Positions 4,939-64,000 of a DNA stretch of 64,000 bases are shown here, piece by piece; the stretch's first letter is position 1, and each line of letters begins with the position of its first letter. The notes under the pieces are model-generated. The model was not told the DNA's origin. It worked only from the letters and a program-made list of their open reading frames with translations, and did not search any database. The stretch lies in NCBI GenBank assembly GCA_963827165.1, contig CAWGZR010000004.1, positions 96,001 through 160,000 on the forward strand, written 5' to 3'. This DNA comes from Candidatus Bathyarchaeota archaeon. Its GTDB lineage: Archaea; Thermoproteota; Bathyarchaeia; Bathyarchaeales; Bathycorpusculaceae. A program made the translations under genes and the position numbers.

Positions 4939-5743
4939 TCTTGAAGAATGCCTCCCTGAGCATCCTCATCGTGTCGGCGACTTCGTCTTCTTCATGCGTC
5001 AACTTGAGGAAGACCTCTTCTAGCGTACCGTCCTTGCCATCTGTTTTGCTTCTGAGCTCAGCCAGGGTTCCTTCAGCTATTACTTTGCCTTGATAAATTA
5101 TACCGATTCTATTGCAGACCTGCTGAGCAACCTCCATGATGTGAGTTGAAAACAGAACGGCGCCGCCTTTTTGCGCATGAATCGCAACCAGCTCTTTGAC
5201 TATTCGGCTGCTTTTAGCGTCTAGACCGTTGAGGGGTTCATCTAGCAATAGGACGGGGGGTTGATGGATAAGTGAGGCGATCAGGGCGACTTTTTGCTTC
5301 ATGCCCAGCGACAGGGTTGCGATGGGCGAGTCAAAATATGGGGCCATGTCAAAAGCTGAGGCAAGTTGAGCGGTTAATTCGTTGGTGGATGCTCTGTCGG
5401 TTTTCCTGATGGATGCAACAAACTCGAGAAAATCCCGGGGCGACAAGGAATCGTAAACTATGGGGTTTTCGGCGACGTAGCCGATTTTTGATTTAACTTC
5501 GATGGGGTTTTTCGCAGGATCCAAGCCTACGACTTTGATCCAGCCGGAAGTTGGCTCTTGCAAACCTAGGATTGTTTTGATGGTTGTTGTTTTGCCTGCG
5601 CCGTTGGGTCCCAGCAGTCCGTAAACTTCTCCAGGCATTACACGTAAATTCACATTCGACAAGGCTTGAAATGAGCCGAATTGCTTGGTAAGATTGGATG
5701 TTTCAATCAGGGGCTCGGAGGATGAGCTAAATGTTTTTTGCAA
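4925..5743 (-). CDS. ABC transporter ATP-binding protein
   Basis: GPNGAGKTT, LSLGMKQ, LLLDEP, H-loop STH. Confidence 0.92.
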   Translation of the reverse strand: MQKTFSSSSEPLIETSNLTKQFGSFQALSNVNLRVMPGEVYGLLGPNGAGKTTTIKTILGLQEPTSGWIKVVGLDPAKNPIEVKSKIGYVAENPIVYDSLSPRDFLEFVASIRKTDRASTNELTAQLASAFDMAPYFDSPIATLSLGMKQKVALIASLIHQPPVLLLDEPLNGLDAKSSRIVKELVAIHAQKGGAVLFSTHIMEVAQQVCNRIGIIYQGKVIAEGTLAELRSKTDGKDGTLEEVFLKLTHEEDEVADTMRMLREAFFKNEPK

Positions 5744-5887
5744 CCAACCATCGCCTGCTTGGGAACCAACCTCTAGTCTTGTGGGTAAACAAATTATATC
5801 TTACTAATCCTCAATCCACAAATCCTCAAGAGTTTACTGCCAACCTGTTCTTCTGGCTAGCTAGATTCCTAATCTTTAGGTGTCGTT

Positions 5888-7165
5888 CTATTCGCTTAGC
5901 ATTTGTACTCCGTCGATTTGGCCATTGTCTGCGAAGATGCCGACGGTGACTTCATTTACGGCACCTGGATAAACCCTGTCAAGGCCAAGTATCACGTACC
6001 AGTAGGGGATCAGAGCGTCGGAGCCGGTTCGAGGATGCGGAACCATCTGAACTGAAATGGGCGTATCAAGAACCGGAAAATCCGTGTATTTTGTTCCGTT
6101 GAAATTCCAAGTCAAGGTTGAAACATAGTTTTTAGACATGGTGACCGCTTCCGACTGTGAAATGGTCAAATCGGTGCTTCCCACGGTGAACAGATAGTAG
6201 CCATCAGTCATAGTAATGAGGATGTTGTTCTGGAATTCCATCATTACGCCTTTAGCCTGATAGTCTATACCGTTCTGCGTGTACATCCACATGAACTCTG
6301 TGTCGCCGCCTGAAACGGTTATTTGAAGCGTCATGTTACCCTGCGTAACTGATGTAGGGCCGCTTGCATTTACAGCGTCTATAAGGTTAGCCATCTGGCT
6401 AAGATACGGAAAGCCAGTGAATGCCTGATACCGCTCAAGCACACCTTTGGCGGCTTGCACAACGTCATTGGGCTGGGTCTCCGTGAAAACAGGTGAGCTT
6501 TCCCCCATGTCAAGTTGGTAACGACTGAACTCATTATTTCTGAACCGCAGGTCAACATTAAAGGTATATGGTCCATTTGTTAAAGAATATGTGAGCAATT
6601 CCTCAGCCGCATCAAGTTCCGTGTTATACTGAAGAGTGTTACTGAGCAGAGAAACCGTGTATTGACTTGTGTCTATTTGAGTTACGTTCTGCAGAAAATC
6701 AGCCACTTTATTGGTGCCTATCCCCCAGGAAAGCAACTGCTGGTTTTCCGCAGCTAAGGCATTTTGTTTGCTGGACAGGTGATTCATAGACGTATATTCG
6801 ATGGTAGAAATGCTGGCTAAAATCAAAACCGCAACTAGCAGCACTGAAACCGCGGCTTTCCATTTAAAAGACAAGTGAATTCTGCGTTTAGGCTCGATTT
6901 CCGGAGCATCTTCAACACCCTTCATAGCACTTACGGTAGCCAACCCGAAAGTTGACAGCTTATACTGCCCATTATCCATCTTGTTAACAAGGTCGCCGAG
7001 GCTTTCAAGATGATAAGTCAAATTAGAAGTAGAAATATCCAGCTCTCCAGCAATATCCATAAAAGTCATAGGTTTGAGGGAAAGCATACGTATAATTTTG
7101 CGGCGAACCGGATGCTTAAGCGACGAGAACATGGTCGAGTAGATTTCATCTTCTGAACTGGCCAC
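5888..7165 (-). CDS. Membrane-anchored ArsR-type winged-HTH regulator with large extracellular domain
   Basis: N-terminal LKHPVRRKII...LTYHL, single TM, polar C-terminal domain. Confidence 0.75.
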   Translation of the reverse strand: MASSEDEIYSTMFSSLKHPVRRKIIRMLSLKPMTFMDIAGELDISTSNLTYHLESLGDLVNKMDNGQYKLSTFGLATVSAMKGVEDAPEIEPKRRIHLSFKWKAAVSVLLVAVLILASISTIEYTSMNHLSSKQNALAAENQQLLSWGIGTNKVADFLQNVTQIDTSQYTVSLLSNTLQYNTELDAAEELLTYSLTNGPYTFNVDLRFRNNEFSRYQLDMGESSPVFTETQPNDVVQAAKGVLERYQAFTGFPYLSQMANLIDAVNASGPTSVTQGNMTLQITVSGGDTEFMWMYTQNGIDYQAKGVMMEFQNNILITMTDGYYLFTVGSTDLTISQSEAVTMSKNYVSTLTWNFNGTKYTDFPVLDTPISVQMVPHPRTGSDALIPYWYVILGLDRVYPGAVNEVTVGIFADNGQIDGVQMLSE

Positions 7166-7335
7166 TGAAGCACCCGCGTAAAGTACATGGTGGTCAATCC
7201 TTAAAAAGCATATTTAAAATAACCGTAAAAAAAGTTCAAGAAAATATTTGCGGAATTTACAGCCCGCATATGCGTTATATTTTTTTAAAAAAAACAAAAA
7301 AAGAAAGAAGTTGATTTTGTAGTCGTTTGTTCGCT

Positions 7336-10062
7336 TTATGGTTTCTTTCTGAGCATAATCAACGCGAGCACTGCGCCGATTATTATTACGACAATGATGA
7401 CTGCTGCGATACCGTATTCTAAGCTTGCAGTGGATGCTATGCTTGTGAGTGGTGTAGCAGTTGGTGCTGTAGTTGCTGGAGCGCTCATAATGTTAAAGCT
7501 GCTTTCTGAGGCTGATGGCCAGTAAGCGTATGTGCCGCCGAAGTGGGCATAGACTGTGTAGTTACCTGTGATGCTTGGTGTCCATGTTAGCGAATAATGG
7601 CCGCTCTCGTCTGTTGTGGTTGTGCCTACGACGTAGGTGTTGTGGTTAGAGTCAGTTACGCCTATTGTGACTGGAACGCCGACGAATGTGGCTGGTGCTG
7701 GTTGCTGCTGGTAAACGTATCCCATCCACTGAGTCATGATCGAGTCAGCTGCGCATGGAACTCCGTTTGCAAAGTTGCCTGCCTGTTCAGTTTGTTTTGT
7801 GCCTGCGGCTACATCCATTACTGTGCCCGATATGACTACGTTGCTTCCAAGGGTTGTGGCCTGTGGTCCAGCGTTGACTGTTGTTGAGCTTGGTCCTCTG
7901 CCGACGCTGTAGATCTGGTTGTCGTAGCCGTTGAACATTATTGAATAGCCGTCTGCGATTGCGTAGCTATTTGTCAGGAATTCGCCTGTGTAATCGGAAA
8001 GTGCCCAGATTTGTAGTCCGGTTGTTGCGTTGATGCCGCGTGATACTGCGCCTTTGAAAATCGGTGTTTCTTCAGTGTGTTCGGTTGTGACAGTGTATAT
8101 TACTCCTGAACCGATTGCATTTACGAATGTTGGGTAATTGCCGAAGGGAGTTTCAAGACCTGCATTTGTGCTGTTGTCTGATCCTACTGGGCCGTTGCCG
8201 AAGGTCCATAGTAGATTTCCAGTTAGATCGTTGTAGCAGTAGAGTATTCCTGCGTAGGCGGTGCTGTAGATGTTGCCGTAAGCAATTGCGTCGCTTATAC
8301 TGCCTGACCCGTCTGAGCCATAATAGTCAAGTGACGCTTGTGGTACGGATGGTCCCCAAATTTGCTTGCCTGTATGCAAACTGTAGCCGACAAATTGAAG
8401 ACTTTCTCGGTAGTTTTCGACAAAGACGTTGTTAACAGGGTCGATTCCAGCCCACAGTACAGTAATGTTTCCTGCTGGTGGTTGAATCGTGTTTGACCAT
8501 ATCTGCGAGCCCAGTGTACCAGCGGTTGAGTTGAGGTTGATGCCGTAGTAAGTGTATGGAACGTCGCTTGATCCGCCAAAGAAGAGGTTTTCGCCAGTTG
8601 AGGGATAATTGCCAGCGCGCGCAAGCAATATGTCACCTTGGACACCTGCGGAAATAGTTAAGCCTGCTGCTGAGGATCCTATGAGAGCACCGTTGAGTGT
8701 TGCAGTGTTGAGCCACGGTATTGAAATGTTGAAGTCGTATAAGCTTGGTTCAAAAGTGGTTCCTACAGTGCCGCCTGTCCAAGCTCCATTGGTTATTGGC
8801 GGAGGTATAGTTGGCGTTGTTGATGGACCATTGTATAGGTTGTCCCAAAGCCTAGATGAATTCCATTCATACATGTACCAATTTGGCGCTGCTGCGGTTC
8901 CGTAGTTGTGGAGGGATATTGACAGATATTCGCCGTTCGGACCCAGCATTGATGTGCCCGAGGGAGGGCTCGTCATGTTAAAGAGTGCGGTTCCTGTGAA
9001 AGCATCATAGAAATTCCATTGACCAGATACACTAGCAACTAGCATTGGTGGCCAAACTCCGTGCTGATTGGCATCTTCCGGATCGTATACGTAGGCGAAA
9101 GATATTGCGGGCATGGTGGAGCTGATCCAGATTTGTTGTCCAGTTTGCAGGTTATAGCAGACGGTTGGTCCACTTGATGGTTCGGTTTGGCTGATTGGTT
9201 CTTTGAAGATGAGCATTCCGGAGACAATGATTGGATTTTGGAATTTTTGGTCGTATGCAGACCCTTCGGCGTAAGTGTTTCCAGGTATTGTGGTTGCAGT
9301 TTGTCCGACGACTCCTCCAGTGGTTAAGGGCAATGTCCACATAACGTGAGAAGTCAATGGTCCAACGTTTGTCGGTGAGCCGAATTCTTCCCCGTTGCCT
9401 CCCAAGTTAGGTCCGCCGCCGAGCGCTATGTAGCCAGGTGAACTGAAACCTAACCAGTTTGATCCGAGCGTGTACCAGGCGGTGTTTTCACCGTATATGG
9501 GTCGCGTCCAGTACGCTGTCGGAAGTGGTGTTTGTGGAAGTCCAGCTATTGGGTTTGTCTGAACAGTCAGGGTTGTCGATGCTGTTGCTGATGTATAGGT
9601 ATCGTTTATGAGTGCTGAGGCGGGATCGTTGGCGGATGTTACTGTTGTCGCTGGAAAGTTGAAGGTGAGAGTGTACGTGCCGGTCGTGGTTGGAGTGAAG
9701 AAGTAGTCGTAGTCAGATGTTGTGCTTTCAACGAGACCTAAGGTTTCCGTTGTGTTTGTACCATCTGGAGCAGTAATAACGAGTACCCAACTTGGATCGG
9801 TGGCAGTTCCTTCGCTGAATCGATAATTATTGGGTATTTCGGCATTGTTCCCGAAAATTACTTGAACCCACATGATAATTTCGACGCCTTGACCGACGCC
9901 TGTAGGATTGGGTGCCGCACTGATGTATGCATACGTTGGAATATCATACGCCGCGTGAACAGCTGGAATTAGAATCATTGAAGCGGTCATTGAAAATGCT
10001 AAGACTATCGTGATGGCAATAGCAAGAGTTCTGTTTTTACTAATTTGCAATTTTTTGTTCAT
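7336..10062 (-). CDS. Large cell-surface protein with PQQ-like beta-propeller repeats
   Basis: Signal peptide, repeated TG..xW motifs, Thr-rich linker, C-terminal TM plus RKKP. Confidence 0.75.
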   Translation of the reverse strand: MNKKLQISKNRTLAIAITIVLAFSMTASMILIPAVHAAYDIPTYAYISAAPNPTGVGQGVEIIMWVQVIFGNNAEIPNNYRFSEGTATDPSWVLVITAPDGTNTTETLGLVESTTSDYDYFFTPTTTGTYTLTFNFPATTVTSANDPASALINDTYTSATASTTLTVQTNPIAGLPQTPLPTAYWTRPIYGENTAWYTLGSNWLGFSSPGYIALGGGPNLGGNGEEFGSPTNVGPLTSHVMWTLPLTTGGVVGQTATTIPGNTYAEGSAYDQKFQNPIIVSGMLIFKEPISQTEPSSGPTVCYNLQTGQQIWISSTMPAISFAYVYDPEDANQHGVWPPMLVASVSGQWNFYDAFTGTALFNMTSPPSGTSMLGPNGEYLSISLHNYGTAAAPNWYMYEWNSSRLWDNLYNGPSTTPTIPPPITNGAWTGGTVGTTFEPSLYDFNISIPWLNTATLNGALIGSSAAGLTISAGVQGDILLARAGNYPSTGENLFFGGSSDVPYTYYGINLNSTAGTLGSQIWSNTIQPPAGNITVLWAGIDPVNNVFVENYRESLQFVGYSLHTGKQIWGPSVPQASLDYYGSDGSGSISDAIAYGNIYSTAYAGILYCYNDLTGNLLWTFGNGPVGSDNSTNAGLETPFGNYPTFVNAIGSGVIYTVTTEHTEETPIFKGAVSRGINATTGLQIWALSDYTGEFLTNSYAIADGYSIMFNGYDNQIYSVGRGPSSTTVNAGPQATTLGSNVVISGTVMDVAAGTKQTEQAGNFANGVPCAADSIMTQWMGYVYQQQPAPATFVGVPVTIGVTDSNHNTYVVGTTTTDESGHYSLTWTPSITGNYTVYAHFGGTYAYWPSASESSFNIMSAPATTAPTATPLTSIASTASLEYGIAAVIIVVIIIGAVLALIMLRKKP

Positions 10063-57705: not shown

Positions 57706-59901
57706 CTATTTGATTTTTAACTTCTTATAGATATAGGAAAATACTTTTTCGCCTTCCGCAACAGGTTCCTTGAACCTGACAGAAACCTCGGCTGCTGAAA
57801 GTGAAGCCCTGATTTCCCCTGCAACTCCTGATGCGGTAACAACTTTTGTTCCTACGAATTTGGAAGCAGCTTCCGAGGTGCTAAATAGACCCTTCACGGA
57901 ATATTCGTTGGCTTCTCTTTTTTGTTTTACAGTTCCTTCTTTGGTCTTTTTTGAGAAGAATTCTAATTTGCTGTTTGTTTCAGTAATTCTTCCGCCGCCG
58001 ATTATTCGAAATTCGCGGGCTTGGAGTCCAGGGTTCATCAAGAGGACTTGGTCGCCTCTTTCCGCCACGACTTGTTGTCTGAGTTCAATGTAAACTAAAC
58101 ATTTTTCAGAAGCCTTCACTGAGGTCTTCACAACGAACTTGCCTTCTTCCATGACCCCGGGCACGACGTTTCCCAGCACCTCATAAGAACCGACAAACAC
58201 GTCTACATCGCTATAGGGCGTCAACGTACGCAGATAGTATTTGTCCACTTCTAATTCGATTATTACACGGTGGGTAGAGCTTATGGAGCCTGGAGAAACT
58301 GCTACGTAACCCCTGTGAGCGTCATCAGGTTTTACGTCTTTGACGGCAACGCCCACCCTGTCTCCAGCGATAGCTTCCTCCTTGTCCTCACCGAATGACC
58401 GCAGTGAACGCACCTGACCTTTTTTGTCGATGGGTTTGATTTCAATGATATCTTTAACCTTTACTTTCCCGCGGTGTATCGTCCCTGTTAAAACAGTTCC
58501 CACTCCGACTATGGTGAATGCGTGGTCTATGGGCATCTTGAATGGACCATTCCATTGGCGAATAGGCGGACTGATAGACTCCTGTAGTGCACTTTTGAGT
58601 TCATCAATTCCTTTGCCCGTTAATCCTGAGACCTCCACGATCTTTGCGTTCTCATATGGAGTTCCTTTGAGAAGAACTGTGACTTTCTTCTTGACTTCCT
58701 CAATTCGCTCTGGAGAAGCCAAATCGACCTTGTTTATAGCAACTACAAGATTCTTTATTCCAACGTCTTTAATTATTGAGAAATGCTCCACGCTCTGAAC
58801 CTGGAGGCCGAGATCGGCGGCCACAACCAGCACAGCAGCATCAATTATGTTAGCACCCGCCACTGCATGCCTAACCAAACTGAAGTGTCCCGGCAAGTCA
58901 ACTAGAGTAGCGAGATAGGGACCTAACGTGAAAGCGGAGAAGCCCATATCCAATGTCATTCCCCGCCTGGCGGAGTCTGGTGCCTTATCCAGAGCTGCTG
59001 TCGAAGGTTTTTCAGTTAGCTGCCGGGCAAGCATTGTTTTGCCGTGGTCAACATGCCCGAACAGACCAACATGAACGGGAATGAGCCCCTTGCCCTCAGT
59101 CATAGCGTAACTTTTTGCGACTACATTGGCTTCTCTTAGGAATAATTCAACCGCGTCCACAGGCTTCGAACCGTCTTCAAGAGCCTTCTTCACCACTTCT
59201 TTTCTGATTCTTGAAAGAGAAATGCCCAAGTCCGGATTCTTGTATCGCGTCATAACCTCCATCATGGACTTTCTGGTTTCCCTTTCGATGCCTCTTGCTC
59301 TTAGTGACTTCTCGTTTTCCACAACTTTTCTGGGCTTGGACCTGATCGGTTGTTCAAGTCTCTTGAGAACTGCGGTAACAATGAGGCTTGCAATCTCTTC
59401 GATGCTTTGCTTACTTGGGTCGACAACAACAAGGGGAGTGTCCCATTTGTAATCGCCTTTTGGCGCGTCAAGTTTCTGATTGATTTCCTCAATGAGCGAT
59501 AATGGAATCGGCGATCCGCGTTCTTGATTCCATGCAATGGCTTGTTCAACGGGAGTGTCAACAAAAACTATGTCATAGTCAGAGCATAACCGTTTGGCAA
59601 TCTGCCTAAGCTCGCTCCTCATCGACTTGTAGTAGTTTAGGTCATCGCTAATTACGAGAAAACCATTCTCCAAACCGGTTGCAATAGCTTTCTCATAAAG
59701 AGTCTTGACAGATGCTTCCCGTTCAGGTTTGAATCCTTTGGAGCTATACGAGAGCATGTCCCGAAAATCGTCAGAGCTGACCACCATGGTTGAAACGTCA
59801 TGTTTGTCCTCGAGCAAGGAGGCGACGTTTTTGCAGATGGTTGTCTTTCCTGAAGAAGGCAATCCGCATAGTATAAGCAGGTAAGGAACGCTCTGTGACA
59901 C
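57706..59901 (-). CDS. selB: Fusion of O-phosphoseryl-tRNA(Sec) kinase (PSTK) and Sec-specific elongation factor SelB
   Basis: N-terminal GLPSSGKTT, DDLNYYKSMR, WD; C-terminal GHVDHGKT, RGMTLDMGF, DLPGH, NKVD, IDHAF..GVGTV.TG. Confidence 0.88.
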   Translation of the reverse strand: MSQSVPYLLILCGLPSSGKTTICKNVASLLEDKHDVSTMVVSSDDFRDMLSYSSKGFKPEREASVKTLYEKAIATGLENGFLVISDDLNYYKSMRSELRQIAKRLCSDYDIVFVDTPVEQAIAWNQERGSPIPLSLIEEINQKLDAPKGDYKWDTPLVVVDPSKQSIEEIASLIVTAVLKRLEQPIRSKPRKVVENEKSLRARGIERETRKSMMEVMTRYKNPDLGISLSRIRKEVVKKALEDGSKPVDAVELFLREANVVAKSYAMTEGKGLIPVHVGLFGHVDHGKTMLARQLTEKPSTAALDKAPDSARRGMTLDMGFSAFTLGPYLATLVDLPGHFSLVRHAVAGANIIDAAVLVVAADLGLQVQSVEHFSIIKDVGIKNLVVAINKVDLASPERIEEVKKKVTVLLKGTPYENAKIVEVSGLTGKGIDELKSALQESISPPIRQWNGPFKMPIDHAFTIVGVGTVLTGTIHRGKVKVKDIIEIKPIDKKGQVRSLRSFGEDKEEAIAGDRVGVAVKDVKPDDAHRGYVAVSPGSISSTHRVIIELEVDKYYLRTLTPYSDVDVFVGSYEVLGNVVPGVMEEGKFVVKTSVKASEKCLVYIELRQQVVAERGDQVLLMNPGLQAREFRIIGGGRITETNSKLEFFSKKTKEGTVKQKREANEYSVKGLFSTSEAASKFVGTKVVTASGVAGEIRASLSAAEVSVRFKEPVAEGEKVFSYIYKKLKIK

Positions 59902-60105: not shown

Positions 60106-61452
60106 TTGTTCTTGCCGACGGCACCAGAGGTATGTTTCATGTTACCGTTTGATAAGTTAAAAGATACTATCCCAAAGAGCATACTTGAGAGAGGCCTAAC
60201 AGTGTTAGGCACAGAGTCACAGCCGATAAAACTGCTTTTCGAGCAAAGAAGAATACCCCAAGAAGGCTGGAAAGACAGCCAAATCGAAGAATTCCTGAAT
60301 TTGCTGTCTACAATGGATTCGGACAAGGACAGTAAAGCAGTTTTTGTAGGCGAAAGAGAAGGCAGGGTTGCATCCCCAGCAGTTTCAAAGCTGGCAAGTG
60401 GATTTCACCACGGGATAGGAAGGTCAGGTGACTTGACTGAAGCCCAGCCTAAGGCGGCAGGTGGATCTCTCATGTATTATTTTGCTAACAAATTAGCAAA
60501 TGACGCCATGAAAAGGTTCGGACTCCCAAACATCAAAAAGACAGTGGTCTTTCCTGTGGCAACGGGAATGACGCTTGCTCTTGTCTTATGCGCCGCAAGA
60601 AACCACGCCATGGGAAGAGAGGTGGTTTACCCACAGATTGACCATAAGACCCCTTTGAAGGCAATTCATCTTGCCGGTCTTCAAGAGAAAATAGTTAAAG
60701 GAGAAGTCGATGGAGACGCAGTAAACGTTTCCACTGAAGAGATAGAAAAAGCAGTTAATGAAAATACAGCTGCGATCCTTTCAACAACCACCTTCTTTTC
60801 ACCCAGAGAACCAGATAAAATCAAAGATATTGCAAAGATCGCAGAGAAGAAAAAAGTCCCACATATTATAAACAACTCCTTCGGAGTGCAGAGCCGCGAG
60901 ATCATGAAACTCATAAGAGGCGCAGTCGACGCAGGACGTGTGGACGCAATAATCCAAAGCACCGATAAGAATTTCCTAACCCCAGTAGGAGGAGCAATAG
61001 TCGCTTCACCCAACGAAGAATTCTTAGACGAAATATCTGAAACCTATGCAGGGAGGGCAACAGCCGCTCCCGTAGTGCAATTCCTAGCAGCTGCACTGTC
61101 GATAGGATTAGAAGGCTACGAGAAACTGAGAACCCAGCAAGAAGAAAACAAGAAGTTCCTTGAATCATCCTTGAAAGAGGTTGCAGAAAGGCATTCGCAG
61201 CGTATTCTCAACGTTTACAATCCAATATCGGTGGCTATGACACTGGAGGGAAGAAACGCCAAAAAAATAGGTCAAGCCCTCTATACGGCAAGGGTTAACG
61301 GAGCAAGAGCTTTAGAAAAAAATGATTTCGGAGTATGCTGCCCAGAATACATCTCATCTTACATCAACTTCGACGCCAGCATAGGAATACAAAAAAACGA
61401 AATCACTCTAGCAACAGAGAGGTTAGACACCGTTTTGAAGACTGCGTCGTAG
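60106..61452 (+). CDS. spcS: O-phosphoseryl-tRNA(Sec) selenium transferase (SepSecS)
   Basis: MDS, GEREGR, HGIGRSGD, QPKAAG, QSTDKNF (PLP lysine), YAGRA. Confidence 0.93.
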   Translation: MFLPTAPEVCFMLPFDKLKDTIPKSILERGLTVLGTESQPIKLLFEQRRIPQEGWKDSQIEEFLNLLSTMDSDKDSKAVFVGEREGRVASPAVSKLASGFHHGIGRSGDLTEAQPKAAGGSLMYYFANKLANDAMKRFGLPNIKKTVVFPVATGMTLALVLCAARNHAMGREVVYPQIDHKTPLKAIHLAGLQEKIVKGEVDGDAVNVSTEEIEKAVNENTAAILSTTTFFSPREPDKIKDIAKIAEKKKVPHIINNSFGVQSREIMKLIRGAVDAGRVDAIIQSTDKNFLTPVGGAIVASPNEEFLDEISETYAGRATAAPVVQFLAAALSIGLEGYEKLRTQQEENKKFLESSLKEVAERHSQRILNVYNPISVAMTLEGRNAKKIGQALYTARVNGARALEKNDFGVCCPEYISSYINFDASIGIQKNEITLATERLDTVLKTAS

Positions 61453-61542
61453 TGGCGGCGTCCAAGGGGAATCGGACCCCGAGACCTTGCGGGCTCACCG
61501 GATTTGAAGTCCGATGCTAGGACCACCTAGCCGTGGGACGCC
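61453..61542 (-). tRNA. selC: tRNA-Sec(TCA)
   Basis: 90 nt; 9-position acceptor, 6-bp D-stem with 4-nt loop, CT-TCA-AA loop, long variable arm, 4-bp T-stem, G discriminator, CCA. Confidence 0.93.
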
Positions 61543-62355: not shown

Positions 62356-64000
62356 TTACTTCGCCGGTGCTTTGTCGGCGGGTTTAGCTGCAGGAGCTGA
62401 GGCTGCCGCTTTGCGTTTTAGCATGTTCTCTAAAGTTGGACGAAGCTTGGCGTTTTCGGCCAGTATCTTTTCTTTTCCCAGTTCCTTAAGTTGGCCGCTC
62501 ATTTCCTTGACTATATTGACAAATTTCTCTCCTTCAGCCGACGAAACATAGTCAACCCTTAGTCTTTCCGGGCTCAATCCAAGCTTCTGAAGCATTCCAC
62601 CCAAAGCATCCATGCGCACTTTCATCCTAACGTTTCCAGAGATATAGTGGCAGTCGCTGGGAAGATGACAAGCGGTAATCAACACGCCTCCGACTCCCAG
62701 CCTAAACGCTTCCATAACAAAGTCCCGATCTACCCTCCCAGTGCACATTACCCGTATCGCCCTTGTAGTAGGAGGGTATTCCAGCCGGCTCGTCCCCGCT
62801 CGGTCCGCGCCGGCATAACCTCACCAATTACACATAAACGTCAGTATCTTGTCCTCAGGATCCCTTTCCAGAGCAGCTCTGATTTGCGAGGTTATTTGCT
62901 CATCCGTAAAATGCATCTGAGTTATAGCATCTTGTGGGCATTCAGCAACGCATGTTCCGCACCCATGGCACTGGGCTGCATTAATCTGAGCTGGTTTCCC
63001 CTCAACTGCAGTTATGGCACCAAATGGACAGCTTTTCACGCACACCCCGCATCTTGCTTTTACGTTTCTGCATTTTGCGATGTCAACTATCGAGACTATC
63101 GGTTCTATCGTCCATTTGGGTTGAGAAAGGATCGTTGCCGCCCTTGCTGCCGCACCGCTTCCTTGGGCAACGCTATAGGGTATGTCTTTTGGTCCCTGGC
63201 AAGCACCCGCCAAGAATACTCCGTCCATAGGTGTGTCCATTGGTTTGAGTTTTGGGTGACTCTCCATGAAGAACCCGTCTGATCCTCTCGTTATATGGAG
63301 GATGCCAGCCAATTCTTCGGCTCCCTTGCTGGGTATAGCCGCCGTGCTTAGAACGGCCATCTCCACTTCGACTTCGATGGGCTGCCCCAGCGTCGAGTCC
63401 TCTGCTCGGATAACCAAGTTTTTGGTCTTTGGGTCTTCCAGTATTTGAGATGGCTTTCCCCTGACAAAGATAACGCCCATTTCACGGGCTCTTCGATAGA
63501 ATTCTTCATAACCTTTGGAGGGAGTTCGTATATCAATGTAGAAGATGTAGACTTCCACTTCATTATGGTAGTGTTCTTTCAGAAGGATGGCCTCTTTGAG
63601 CCCGTACATGCAACAGAAACCTGAACAGTATTCGTACTTGTTTACATCCCTTGAACCGACGCATTGAATTATAGCGACGCTCTTCGGTCTTTTTCCATCG
63701 GATGACCGGATTACATGTCCACTTGTTGGGCCGCCCGCTGTGATGAGTCTCTCAAACTCCAAAGCCGTAATTACGTTATCGTATTTTCCGTAGCCGTACC
63801 TTGCATCCTCATATGGTAGATAAATGTCACAGCCCGATGCTACTACGATTGCCCCAACTTCTAAGTCAACTTCTTCTGGCTTTTGGTTAAAGTTAATGGC
63901 TTCACGAGCGCCGCAGGCGTCCACGCATTTGAAGCACTCTATGCAGTAATCCATGTTAATCGAGTAGATGAGAGGCACTGCTTGATCGAACGGAATGGAG
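62356..64000 (-). CDS. hdrA: HdrA-MvhD fusion selenoprotein (5' end outside the window; Sec at TGA 62821-62823)
   Basis: HdrA motifs QCVGSR, CSGFCC, GACQGPKDI and ferredoxin motifs; reads CNW-TGA-GYAGAD...IRVMCTGRVD in frame into MvhD. Confidence 0.9.

What the first reader, a model, noticed from the sequence alone, without database searches (positions are those of the whole stretch)
57706..59901. Natural PSTK-SelB fusion protein
Seen: one uninterrupted 731-aa ORF with ~270 aa of PSTK (P-loop GLPSSGKTT, DDLNYYKSMR, helical C-terminal domain) joined to a ~460-aa archaeal-size SelB GTPase. Established: these are normally separate proteins acting before and after SepSecS on the same tRNA. Inference: the fusion could channel tRNA-Sec, or the PSTK tRNA-binding domain could give SelB extra tRNA or mRNA specificity. 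I do not know of a described example.
Basis: partly seen in the sequence, partly recalled or inferred. Interest (0 to 1): 0.88.

Follow-up and report, generated by a model that had tools for sequence, protein, structure and literature searches.

The report
Known PSTK–SelB fusion gene, confirmed
This archaeal gene really does join the kinase that starts selenocysteine synthesis to the factor that delivers selenocysteine to the ribosome, but the fusion was already described in 2022 and its purpose is still untested.

Summary
Window 57706..59901 (-) is one 731-aa ORF. Residues 1-262 are a complete O-phosphoseryl-tRNA(Sec) kinase, and an 11-residue linker joins them to a complete four-domain archaeal SelB. 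It is the only PSTK and the only SelB in a 94.5%-complete Bathyarchaeia genome. SepSecS, tRNA-Sec and a UGA-containing HdrA/MvhD gene lie beside it. The junction is not an artefact. Contigs from two other studies cross it without indels, and 118 of the 120 listed relatives carry both domains.

The claim of novelty fails. Mukai et al. 2022 (PMC8762117) describe this PSTK-aSelB fusion in "diverse Bathyarchaeota and one Archaeoglobus". They propose that it shields Sep-tRNA(Sec) from SepCysS.

New here:
- In 401 genomes of the class, all 14 PSTK genes (13 genomes) are fused.
- Only this genome also has SepRS/SepCysS, so shielding cannot be the general reason for the fusion.
- Fused PSTK domains form one clade.

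Most likely it is a bifunctional enzyme that keeps tRNA(Sec) tethered from phosphorylation to delivery. That mechanism is inferred, not shown.

The parts
57706..59901 (-). PSTK-aSelB fusion ORF, 731 aa, GTG start, stop codon at 57706-57708
   Evidence: Homologues start at the same position.
59347..59901 (-). [quoted passage not shown] It holds the P-loop G13-L-P-S-S-G18-K19-T20, the Walker-B equivalent D44, D86-D87-x-N89-Y90, and W124-N125-x-x-R128.
   Evidence: Motif definitions come from PMC2275090.
59116..59313 (-). PSTK C-terminal helical tRNA-binding domain (residues 197-262; helices 197-220, 223-243, 247-262). T209, R210, E215, R219 and R233 are invariant in the 33 fused homologues.
59083..59115 (-). 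Junction linker (residues 263-273). Its sequence varies among homologues but its length is nearly constant.
   Evidence: Bridged by independent contigs.
58567..59082 (-). aSelB domain I, the GTPase (about residues 274-445). G1 is GHVDHGKT at 282-289, G3 is DLPGH at 335-339, and G4 is NKVD at 390-393.
57709..58566 (-). aSelB domains II (about 446-540), III (about 541-643) and IV (about 644-731)
   Evidence: Pfam GTP_EFTU_D2 at 468-533, aSelB_III at 546-641, and eEFSec_4th at 645-718 (weak: 22.5 bits against a cut-off of 27). Alignment to 4ac9 up to chain position 455 of 482. The model is confident across these domains.
60139..61452 (+). SepSecS, transcribed divergently from the fusion. The probable start is ATG 60139, giving 437 aa like most listed homologues. 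The ORF lister begins at TTG 60106.
   Evidence: TIGR03531 at 488.6 bits against a cut-off of 224.85. Homologue lengths.
61457..61542 (-). tRNA-Sec (anticodon TCA)
   Evidence: ARAGORN. Rfam RF01852 at 64.5 bits against a gathering score of 47.
62356..63978 (-). HdrA/MvhD-type client gene with one in-frame TGA (residue 386, codon 62821-62823, context FMCNW-U-GYAGAD)

Best explanation
The gene encodes a bifunctional selenocysteine-pathway protein of a Bathyarchaeia archaeon.

The N-terminal 262 residues are a complete PSTK: a P-loop kinase domain plus the helical tRNA-binding domain. [quoted passage not shown] The C-terminal 458 residues are a complete archaeal SelB with a GTPase and domains II-IV. 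It should carry Sec-tRNA(Sec) to UGA codons. SepSecS, encoded next door, acts between the two steps.

Shown here:
- Both halves are full-length.
- Their catalytic and binding motifs are conserved across homologues down to 41% identity.
- They are the only PSTK and SelB in the genome.
- The fusion is the only PSTK form found in the sampled members of the class.

Inferred:
- The short, length-conserved linker keeps SelB physically attached to a module that binds tRNA(Sec) whatever its acylation state. M. jannaschii PSTK binds uncharged tRNA(Sec) with a Kd of 39 nM (PMC2275090 abstract).
- The scarce tRNA(Sec) would therefore stay on one polypeptide from phosphorylation to hand-over. SepSecS would visit the acceptor end, and the two activities would be made in a fixed 1:1 ratio.

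My confidence in the identity of the gene is about 0.97. The figure given for this explanation refers to the tethered hand-off mechanism.
For: Identity:
- Pfam and NCBIfam hits for both halves.
- Alignments to solved M. jannaschii PSTK across both of its domains and to M. maripaludis aSelB across four domains.
- AlphaFold2 model with mean pLDDT 85.8. The last PSTK helix is 247-262, residues 263-273 are unstructured, and the first SelB strand is 274-282.
- Foldseek top hits are 4ac9/4acb aSelB, then eEFSec.

Both halves are under selection. In 33 homologues of 41-91% identity these residues are invariant or at least 90% conserved:
- G13, P15, G18, K19, D44, D86, D87, N89, Y90, R95, W124, N125, R128
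- T209, R210, R219, R233
- H283, H286, G287, K288, T289, D335, P337, G338, K391, D393

The equivalents of M. jannaschii G14, K17, S18, D41 and R120, whose mutation lowers or abolishes activity (PMC2275090), are compatible here (S16, K19, T20, D44, R128).

The gene is needed and in use:
- There is only one PSTK match and only one SelB match above the cut-off in the 94.5%-complete genome, and both are this ORF.
- SepSecS and tRNA-Sec are adjacent.
- SelD is present.
- A client gene with one in-frame TGA lies 2.5 kb away.

The fusion is the standing form in this class:
- In 401 genomes of the class, all 14 PSTK hits in 13 genomes lie in frames joined to SelB. Thirteen frames are 706-771 aa. One is 555 aa and is broken inside SelB domain III, not at the junction.
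- In the 401-genome phylum sample, the only 3 strong PSTK hits are fused.
- Among the best 150 of 1.84 billion representatives, 7 are 704-737 aa with the match at their N-terminus, and no other long architecture appears.
- 22 fused PSTK domains form one clade with SH-aLRT 99, which is consistent with one old fusion event that has been kept since.
- The linker keeps its length while its sequence drifts.
Against: - No experiment and no structural test of hand-off exists. I obtained no inter-domain confidence for the model (pTM 0.66), so a defined PSTK-SelB arrangement is not shown.
- Other Sec-using archaea manage with separate proteins. The nearest stand-alone PSTKs, from Asgard-type archaea, keep the same motifs.
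- The PSTK module must not hinder SelB on the ribosome, and this could not be examined.
- A simple co-expression advantage would explain conservation of the fusion equally well.
- TIGR03574 scores 141 bits, below its equivalog cut-off of 290.5. However, 0 of 401 genomes of the class reach that cut-off while M. jannaschii does.
Confidence: 0.55

Rival explanations
1. Anti-crosstalk device (the published proposal). The fusion stands in for the SepCysE adaptor and keeps Sep-tRNA(Sec) away from SepCysS in archaea that also make Cys-tRNA through SepRS/SepCysS.
For: - Proposed by Mukai et al. 2022 (PMC8762117: abstract, sections 3.4.1 and 4).
- This genome does carry SepRS (477 bits) and SepCysS (553.5 bits).
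- No SepCysE- or SepCysSn-like ORF lies between or beside them.
- Its canonical cysS is in pieces, so SepCysS is probably essential here.
Against: - In the same 401-genome class sample, 13 genomes have the fusion and 42 have SepRS. The overlap is this genome alone.
- The other 12 fusion genomes (84-98% complete) have no SepRS at E<=1e-60 (G396 and G204 also none at E<=1e-20).
- They have no SepCysS either: 2 genomes at E<=1e-10 and 10 genomes at E<=1e-20.
- G396 and G204 have intact CysRS at 511 and 519.5 bits.
- So the fusion is kept where there is nothing to shield against. It forms one clade that is older than this genome's SepRS.
- Absence of SepCysE across the whole genome could not be tested.
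Confidence: 0.12
2. A fusion kept only for co-expression and stoichiometry. The two halves work independently, as the separate proteins do elsewhere, with no transfer of tRNA between them.
For: - Both halves are complete and canonical, and they align end to end with the separate solved proteins.
- The linker is short and not conserved in sequence.
- Split or broken variants occur in assemblies: P0124 is frameshifted near residue 250, and Sifarchaeia are reported to have the two ORFs split by a stop codon (PMC8762117 section 3.4.2).
Against: - Within the sampled class the PSTK-SelB junction is intact in 14 of 14 genes.
- The fused clade has persisted down to 41% identity. This suggests more than a neutral accident, although it does not prove coupling.
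Confidence: 0.25
3. Assembly or sequencing artefact, or a decaying gene: a missed stop or frameshift joins two neighbouring genes.
For: This genome shows a canonical cysS in three frames, so broken genes or frame errors do occur in it.
Against: - Independent contigs from two other studies cross the junction with no difference.
- 118 of the 120 listed relatives from many sources carry both domains.
- 14 of 14 PSTK genes in the class sample are fused.
- The cysS break recurs in a second genome, G683, so it looks real rather than an assembly error.
Confidence: 0.01

Closest known systems
PSTK-aSelB fusion of Bathyarchaeota and one Archaeoglobus species (Mukai et al. 2022, Front Genet, PMC8762117; repeated in the review PMC9499178)
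   Same: The architecture (PSTK at the N-terminus, aSelB at the C-terminus, one ORF), the host group, and the clustering with SepSecS and tRNA-Sec are the same. Relatives are named Bathyarchaeota or Bathyarchaeia by their sources. This gene is a member of that described set.
   Different: Nothing differs in architecture. This genome is unusual among the fused genomes sampled because it also has SepRS/SepCysS (1 of 13). Its tRNA-Sec has C6-G67, with a mismatch at pair 8, not the U6:U67 reported for a wetland lineage.
Methanocaldococcus jannaschii PSTK (PDB 3adb, 3a4l; biochemistry in PMC2275090)
   Same: The two-domain layout, the P-loop, the Walker-B Asp, the distal Arg of RNxxR and the helical C-terminal domain all match. 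The alignment covers residues 8-250.
   Different: - It is free-standing (259-260 residues in the deposited chains).
- The proximal Arg116 is Trp124 here. The same Trp is invariant in the 15 stand-alone relatives aligned, so it is not a feature of the fusion.
- Position G14 is Ser16 here.
Methanococcus maripaludis aSelB (PDB 4ac9/4acb)
   Same: The four-domain archaeal SelB matches. Sequence E is 1.9e-75. Foldseek E is 4.6e-45, with target-normalised TM-scores of 0.77-0.84.
   Different: It has no N-terminal kinase module.
Sifarchaeia (Asgard) PSTK and aSelB ORFs split by a stop codon (PMC8762117 section 3.4.2)
   Same: The gene order, PSTK directly before aSelB, is the same.
   Different: The two ORFs are reported as separate. 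I could not fetch those loci, so I could not test whether the nearest stand-alone PSTKs in my tree (P0272, P0273) are these.
SepCysE adaptor of the transsulfursome
   Same: It is only a proposed functional analogy: keeping a Sep-tRNA intermediate inside one complex.
   Different: It is an unrelated protein. The analogy is weakened by the lack of SepRS/SepCysS in 12 of 13 fused genomes.

Membership tests
[quoted passage not shown] | P-loop 11-GxP(G/A)xGK(S/T)-18 (PMC2275090) | tested here: met
   G13-L-P15-S-S-G18-K19-T20. G13, P15, G18 and K19 are invariant in 33 homologues. The G/A position holds S, A or C.
[quoted passage not shown] | Walker-B Asp (M. jannaschii D41) | tested here: met
   D44 aligns with D41. 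It is at least 90% conserved among the fusions and invariant in A2.
[quoted passage not shown] | 116-RNxxR-120 ATP motif | tested here: inconclusive
   The motif here is W124-N125-x-x-R128. The distal Arg, which matters more in M. jannaschii, is kept, and the proximal Arg is Trp. The same WNxxR is invariant in the 15 stand-alone relatives aligned. R116A keeps partial activity in M. jannaschii.
[quoted passage not shown] | C-terminal helical tRNA-binding domain shared only with Kti12 | tested here: met
   The alignment to 3adb runs to chain position 245 of 259. The model has three helices at 197-262. T209 and R233 are invariant.
[quoted passage not shown] | Closer to PSTK than to Kti12 or other P-loop kinases | tested here: met
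   The best PDB hits are PSTK at E 2e-27, and the next are APS kinases at 8e-6 or weaker. No chain named Kti12 is among the 8 hits at E<=0.001. TIGR03574 scores 141 bits against 70 bits for the eukaryotic PSTK model. The tree places the domain among archaeal PSTK-length proteins. That Kti12 is restricted to eukaryotes is taken from PMC2275090.
[quoted passage not shown] | NCBIfam equivalog cut-off (TIGR03574, 290.5 bits) | tested here: not met
   The score is 141-144 bits. None of the 401 class genomes reaches the cut-off, while M. jannaschii does. I read this as the model being tuned to methanogen sequences.
[quoted passage not shown] | Co-occurrence with SepSecS and tRNA-Sec | tested here: met
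   Both are adjacent in the window. The same holds beside the fusion in G204 (SepSecS) and G396 (SepSecS and tRNA-Sec).
[quoted passage not shown] | Ser-tRNA(Sec) kinase activity | not testable with these tools
   This needs an enzyme assay or complementation.
Archaeal SelB (aSelB/EFSec) | NCBIfam selB equivalog cut-off | tested here: met
   TIGR00475 scores 275 bits against a cut-off of 242.25, and 276.5 bits in the genome search.
Archaeal SelB (aSelB/EFSec) | Translational GTPase motifs G1, G3 and G4 | tested here: met
   GHVDHGKT, DLPGH and NKVD are present. H283, H286, G287, K288, T289, P337, G338 and K391 are invariant, and D335 and D393 are at least 90% conserved.
Archaeal SelB (aSelB/EFSec) | Domains II, III and the short archaeal domain IV | tested here: met
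   PF03144 and PF21440 score above their cut-offs. PF21131 is weak at 22.5 bits against a cut-off of 27. The alignment to 4ac9 reaches chain position 455 of 482. Foldseek gives a target-normalised TM-score of up to 0.84.
Archaeal SelB (aSelB/EFSec) | Specific binding of Sec-tRNA(Sec) and delivery at UGA | not testable with these tools
   The D459-H460 and R515 positions are kept (H460 and R515 are invariant). Their role in the aminoacyl pocket is recalled from the aSelB literature and was not checked in any call.
PSTK-aSelB fusion class (Mukai et al. 2022) | PSTK and aSelB in a single ORF in a Bathyarchaeota or Archaeoglobus genome | tested here: met

The most novel reading that the evidence does not exclude
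The fusion is not an anti-crosstalk patch. It is a single-origin, clade-wide 'tRNA(Sec) escort'. The PSTK C-terminal domain stays on the D-arm of tRNA(Sec) and acts as a built-in tRNA-specificity clamp for aSelB. One polypeptide then holds the tRNA from Ser through Sep to Sec and up to ribosome delivery.

A second, divergent fused paralogue in one genome (G736), whose GTPase switch I and G3 motifs are degenerate, may be a kinase-only or regulatory offshoot.
Probability: 0.25. Interest if true: 0.6.

Novelty: already known. Interest (0 to 1): 0.3.

Why it matters
How archaea recode UGA is still only partly understood. PMC9499178 says the factors that bring the 3'-UTR SECIS to the ribosome are not fully known.

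A natural protein that covalently links the first tRNA-bound step to the delivery step is a ready-made tool. It could be used to ask whether tRNA(Sec) is channelled.

The architecture is already in print, so this window adds only another member. The useful addition here is the census. The fusion is the only PSTK form found in 401 sampled Bathyarchaeia genomes, and 12 of the 13 genomes that carry it lack SepRS/SepCysS. The one published rationale therefore cannot be general, and the purpose of the fusion remains an open, testable question.

Tried and rejected
- **Complex prediction, SepSecS (A3, 437 aa) with the PSTK part (A1 residues 1-268).** The verdict was 'no answer', with scores of 0.00 and 0.00 against a mark of 0.32. 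I do not use it for or against binding.
- **Expression.** No RNA holder was listed for the stretch, so expression could not be examined.
- **The search for related loci on genome contigs with A1.** All 80 loci (L020-L099) cover only about residues 245-666 and none is a fusion. This gave no information on taxonomic spread and used the single scan. I therefore could not locate the Archaeoglobus or Sifarchaeia examples.
- **The look-up of encoding contigs was closed.** I could not view the neighbourhoods of the metagenomic homologues, nor of the nearest stand-alone PSTKs (P0272, P0273, P0269).
- **Idea rejected: W124 in place of M. jannaschii R116 marks the fused clade or an inactive kinase.** The same WNxxR is invariant in the 15 stand-alone relatives aligned.
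- **Foldseek of the whole model** listed only SelB/EF-Tu folds among the rows shown. The PSTK half was identified by sequence instead. I did not fold or search the N-domain alone.
- **SepCysE.** I only saw that no extra ORF lies between or beside SepRS and SepCysS.
- **** was a translation in the wrong frame, which was my slip. It was repeated correctly.
- **Inter-domain geometry.** The structure tool returned no inter-domain confidence, and ribosome compatibility could not be assessed.
- **Limits of the tree.** It is a quick LG+G4 search with SH-aLRT support only. It uses 22 of the fused sequences I held: 17 of the 33 rows of A1 plus 5 new representatives. It also uses 33 stand-alone rows of 230-330 aa and 10 distant rows. 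Two stand-alone candidates outside 230-330 aa were dropped. The root is uncertain.
- **Papers.** The figures and supplements of PMC8762117 (Fig. 9, Figs S2 and S3) were not available to me. I did not ask for the supplements, which were announced as closed. They may already list which fused lineages have SepRS.
Full report
**Observation**

The window holds one uninterrupted ORF on the minus strand, from 59901 (GTG) to 57706, encoding 731 aa.

The N-terminal part is a PSTK:
- Pfam places a KTI12/PSTK-family domain at residues 8-219 (122 bits).
- NCBIfam gives selen_PSTK at 141 bits over residues 8-241.
- Against solved structures, the first 274 residues match M. jannaschii L-seryl-tRNA(Sec) kinase best (3adb/3a4l, E 2e-27). 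The match covers chain positions 13-245 of 259, which includes the kinase domain and the C-terminal helical domain. The next hits are APS kinases at E 8e-6 or weaker.

The C-terminal part is an archaeal SelB:
- Pfam finds GTP_EFTU at 277-443, EF-Tu domain 2 at 468-533 and aSelB domain III at 546-641.
- NCBIfam selB scores 275 bits, above its cut-off of 242.
- The last 464 residues match M. maripaludis aSelB (4ac9, E 1.9e-75) over chain positions 20-455 of 482. Human eEFSec and EF-Tu follow.

An AlphaFold2 model built on 33 homologues has mean pLDDT 85.8 and pTM 0.66. It shows PSTK helices up to residue 262, an unstructured stretch at 263-273, and the first SelB strand at 274-282. Foldseek's best solved folds are aSelB 4ac9/4acb, then eEFSec.

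**Is the junction real?**

Yes, on three lines of evidence:
- Logan contigs of two runs from two other studies cross the linker with 0 differences and 0 gaps: X2 at 58907-59247 and X10 at 59017-59167. No indels or joints were reported.
- Of the 120 best relatives listed in the 5.8-billion-protein search, 118 carry both PF08433 and PF00009, and 116 are 683-741 aa long. Where their sources name them, they are Bathyarchaeota/Bathyarchaeia 'selenocysteine-specific elongation factor'.
- 33 homologues of 41-91% identity align through the junction without a break. The linker varies in sequence but hardly in length.

**Context**

SepSecS is transcribed divergently from the fusion (TIGR03531, 488.6 bits). 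Its likely start is ATG 60139, because most listed homologues are 437 aa. tRNA-Sec follows at 61457-61542. An HdrA/MvhD-type gene at 62356-63978 reads through with exactly one in-frame TGA.

In the whole genome (3.13 Mb, 14 contigs, 94.5% complete), this ORF is the only PSTK match and the only SelB match above the cut-off. SelD is present elsewhere. The organism therefore depends on this one protein for both steps.

**Are both halves functional?**

The sequence evidence says so, although activity is not shown. Across the 33 fused homologues these positions are invariant or at least 90% conserved:
- The kinase P-loop (G13, P15, G18, K19).
- D44, the equivalent of M. jannaschii D41.
- D86-D87-x-N89-Y90.
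- W124-N125-x-x-R128.
- C-terminal-domain residues T209, R210, R219 and R233.
- The GTPase motifs GHVDHGKT, DLPGH and NKVD.

Sherrer et al. 2008 (PMC2275090, passages read) showed that G14, K17, S18, D41 and R120 are essential in M. jannaschii PSTK, while R116A keeps partial activity. Here R116 is a Trp. I first took this for a mark of the fusion. It is not, because the same WNxxR is invariant in the 15 stand-alone relatives aligned.

**Is it known?**

Yes.
- Mukai et al. [quoted passage not shown] They show a typical Bathyarchaeota gene cluster in their Fig. 9B (I could not see the figures).
- They propose that the fusion protects Sep-tRNA(Sec) from SepCysS where SepCysE is missing.
- The review PMC9499178 repeats this.
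- My searches for 'PSTK-SelB', for PSTK+SelB+fusion+archaea, for Bathyarchaeota+selenocysteine+SelB+kinase, and for aSelB/PSTK/Bathyarchaeia found no experimental study of the fused protein.

*1. Distribution.*
- In 401 genomes drawn from the phylum, only three have a strong, full-length PSTK match (187.5, 153.1 and 144.4 bits; the next best is 68.7). All three lie in frames of 734-767 aa.
- In 401 genomes of the class, 13 genomes have 14 PSTK matches at E<=1e-25. Thirteen lie in frames of 706-771 aa.
- The fourteenth (G573, 555 aa) is broken inside SelB domain III, with the PSTK-SelB junction intact.
- No free-standing PSTK was found in those searched.
- The trait is patchy: 5 of 41 genomes of the window's own genus have it.

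*2. Global census.* Among the best 150 of 1.84 billion 50%-identity representatives, seven are 704-737 aa with the match at their N-terminus. All the others are 495 aa or shorter.

*3. Single origin.* A quick maximum-likelihood tree of PSTK domains used 65 rows: 22 fused, 33 stand-alone and 10 distant. It puts all fused domains on one side of a branch with SH-aLRT 99. They sit next to stand-alone proteins of about 260 aa, one of which is named Helarchaeota by its source. This is consistent with a single fusion event.

*4. A test of the published rationale.*
- In the same 401 class genomes, SepRS is present in 42.
- The overlap with the 13 fusion genomes is this genome only.
- The other 12 (84-98% complete) also lack SepCysS.
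- The two I checked (G396, G204) have intact CysRS.
- The fusion is therefore maintained where there is no SepCysS to guard against.
- The window's genome is the exception. There the proposal may still apply locally, because it has SepRS and SepCysS and no adjacent SepCysE-like ORF.

**Mechanism**

The best-supported reading is a bifunctional PSTK/aSelB. I infer that its short, length-conserved linker keeps SelB attached to a module that binds tRNA(Sec) tightly whatever its acylation state (Kd 39 nM for uncharged tRNA(Sec) in M. jannaschii, PMC2275090 abstract). The tRNA would then stay on one polypeptide while SepSecS converts Sep to Sec, and the two activities would be made 1:1.

This remains inference for three reasons:
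- I obtained no inter-domain confidence for the model.
- I could not model RNA.
- The one complex job, on SepSecS with the PSTK part, gave no verdict (see Tried and rejected).

A plain co-expression advantage is a serious rival. The anti-crosstalk idea is a weak general explanation for the reasons above. An artefact is excluded.

**Verdict**

This is a further member of a fusion class published in 2022. Interest is modest. The open point is why the fusion exists, and the census here shows that the only published answer cannot be general.

Noticed in passing
L012 2645-3999 (= G000:C11:20996-22374), next to SepCysS (L012 1456-2610) and SepRS (L012 1-1341): The canonical class-I cysS of this genome is in three frames (184.9, 165.1 and 117.9 bits, with one TGA inside the middle piece), directly beside the SepRS-SepCysS pair. 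G683 is the only other SepRS-bearing genome of the genus in the sample, and it has no PSTK. Its cysS is also in two pieces (209.1 and 253.5 bits). Three SepRS-lacking genus members and G204 have an intact gene (500-520 bits). It looks as if cysS decayed after SepRS/SepCysS was gained. A CysRS-like paralogue (about 280-313 bits, model positions 1-402) is present in all five genus members checked (G000, G396, G077, G318, G683).
   Followed up: partly
L103 1364-3556 (-) and L104 1243-3441 (+), both in G736 contig C1: One single-contig genome has two fused PSTK-SelB genes. One is ordinary (70% identical to the window's protein). The other, P0080, is 54% identical and has degenerate GTPase motifs: GHCKHGKT, VEMPGN in place of VDLPGH, and a changed switch I region. 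Its kinase P-loop and WNxxR motif are kept. It may be a kinase-only or regulatory paralogue.
   Followed up: partly
L102 1113-3310 (-) in G573: The fusion is split into 544 aa plus 182 aa inside SelB domain III, and the PSTK-SelB junction is intact. This is either a pseudogene or an assembly error.
   Followed up: no
protein P0124 (268 aa, 91% identical, on a 52.5-kb contig): This close relative reads out of frame after about residue 250 (after '...SKPVD') and ends there. It is a frameshifted or split form near the junction in one assembly.
   Followed up: no
window 62356-63978 (-), TGA at 62821-62823: An HdrA/MvhD-type gene reads as one 540-aa protein with a single in-frame TGA in the context FMCNW-U-GYAGAD. 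It is a probable selenoprotein client 2.5 kb from the Sec machinery.
   Followed up: partly
window 61457-61542 (-): tRNA-Sec abuts the SepSecS stop codon tail to tail. The Rfam alignment marks four non-standard pairs, including acceptor pair 8 (C opposite U). Pair 6:67 is C-G, not the U6:U67 reported for a wetland Bathyarchaeota lineage.
   Followed up: partly
L100 2743-9977 (G204 contig C92): In another family of the same order the layout differs. The fusion (6664-8862, -) overlaps SepSecS (5346-6671, -) by 8 nt, as in an operon. FdhD, a MobA-like transferase and a hydrogenase small subunit follow. A SelD-like AIRS/AIRS_C gene (283 aa) is divergent upstream. ARAGORN found no tRNA-Sec in the 15 kb held.
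   Followed up: partly
window 60106-60138: The ORF lister starts SepSecS at TTG 60106 (448 aa). Most listed homologues are 437 aa, and the family model matches from residue 22. The real start is therefore probably ATG 60139, which leaves a 237-bp divergent intergenic region shared with the fusion.
   Followed up: partly
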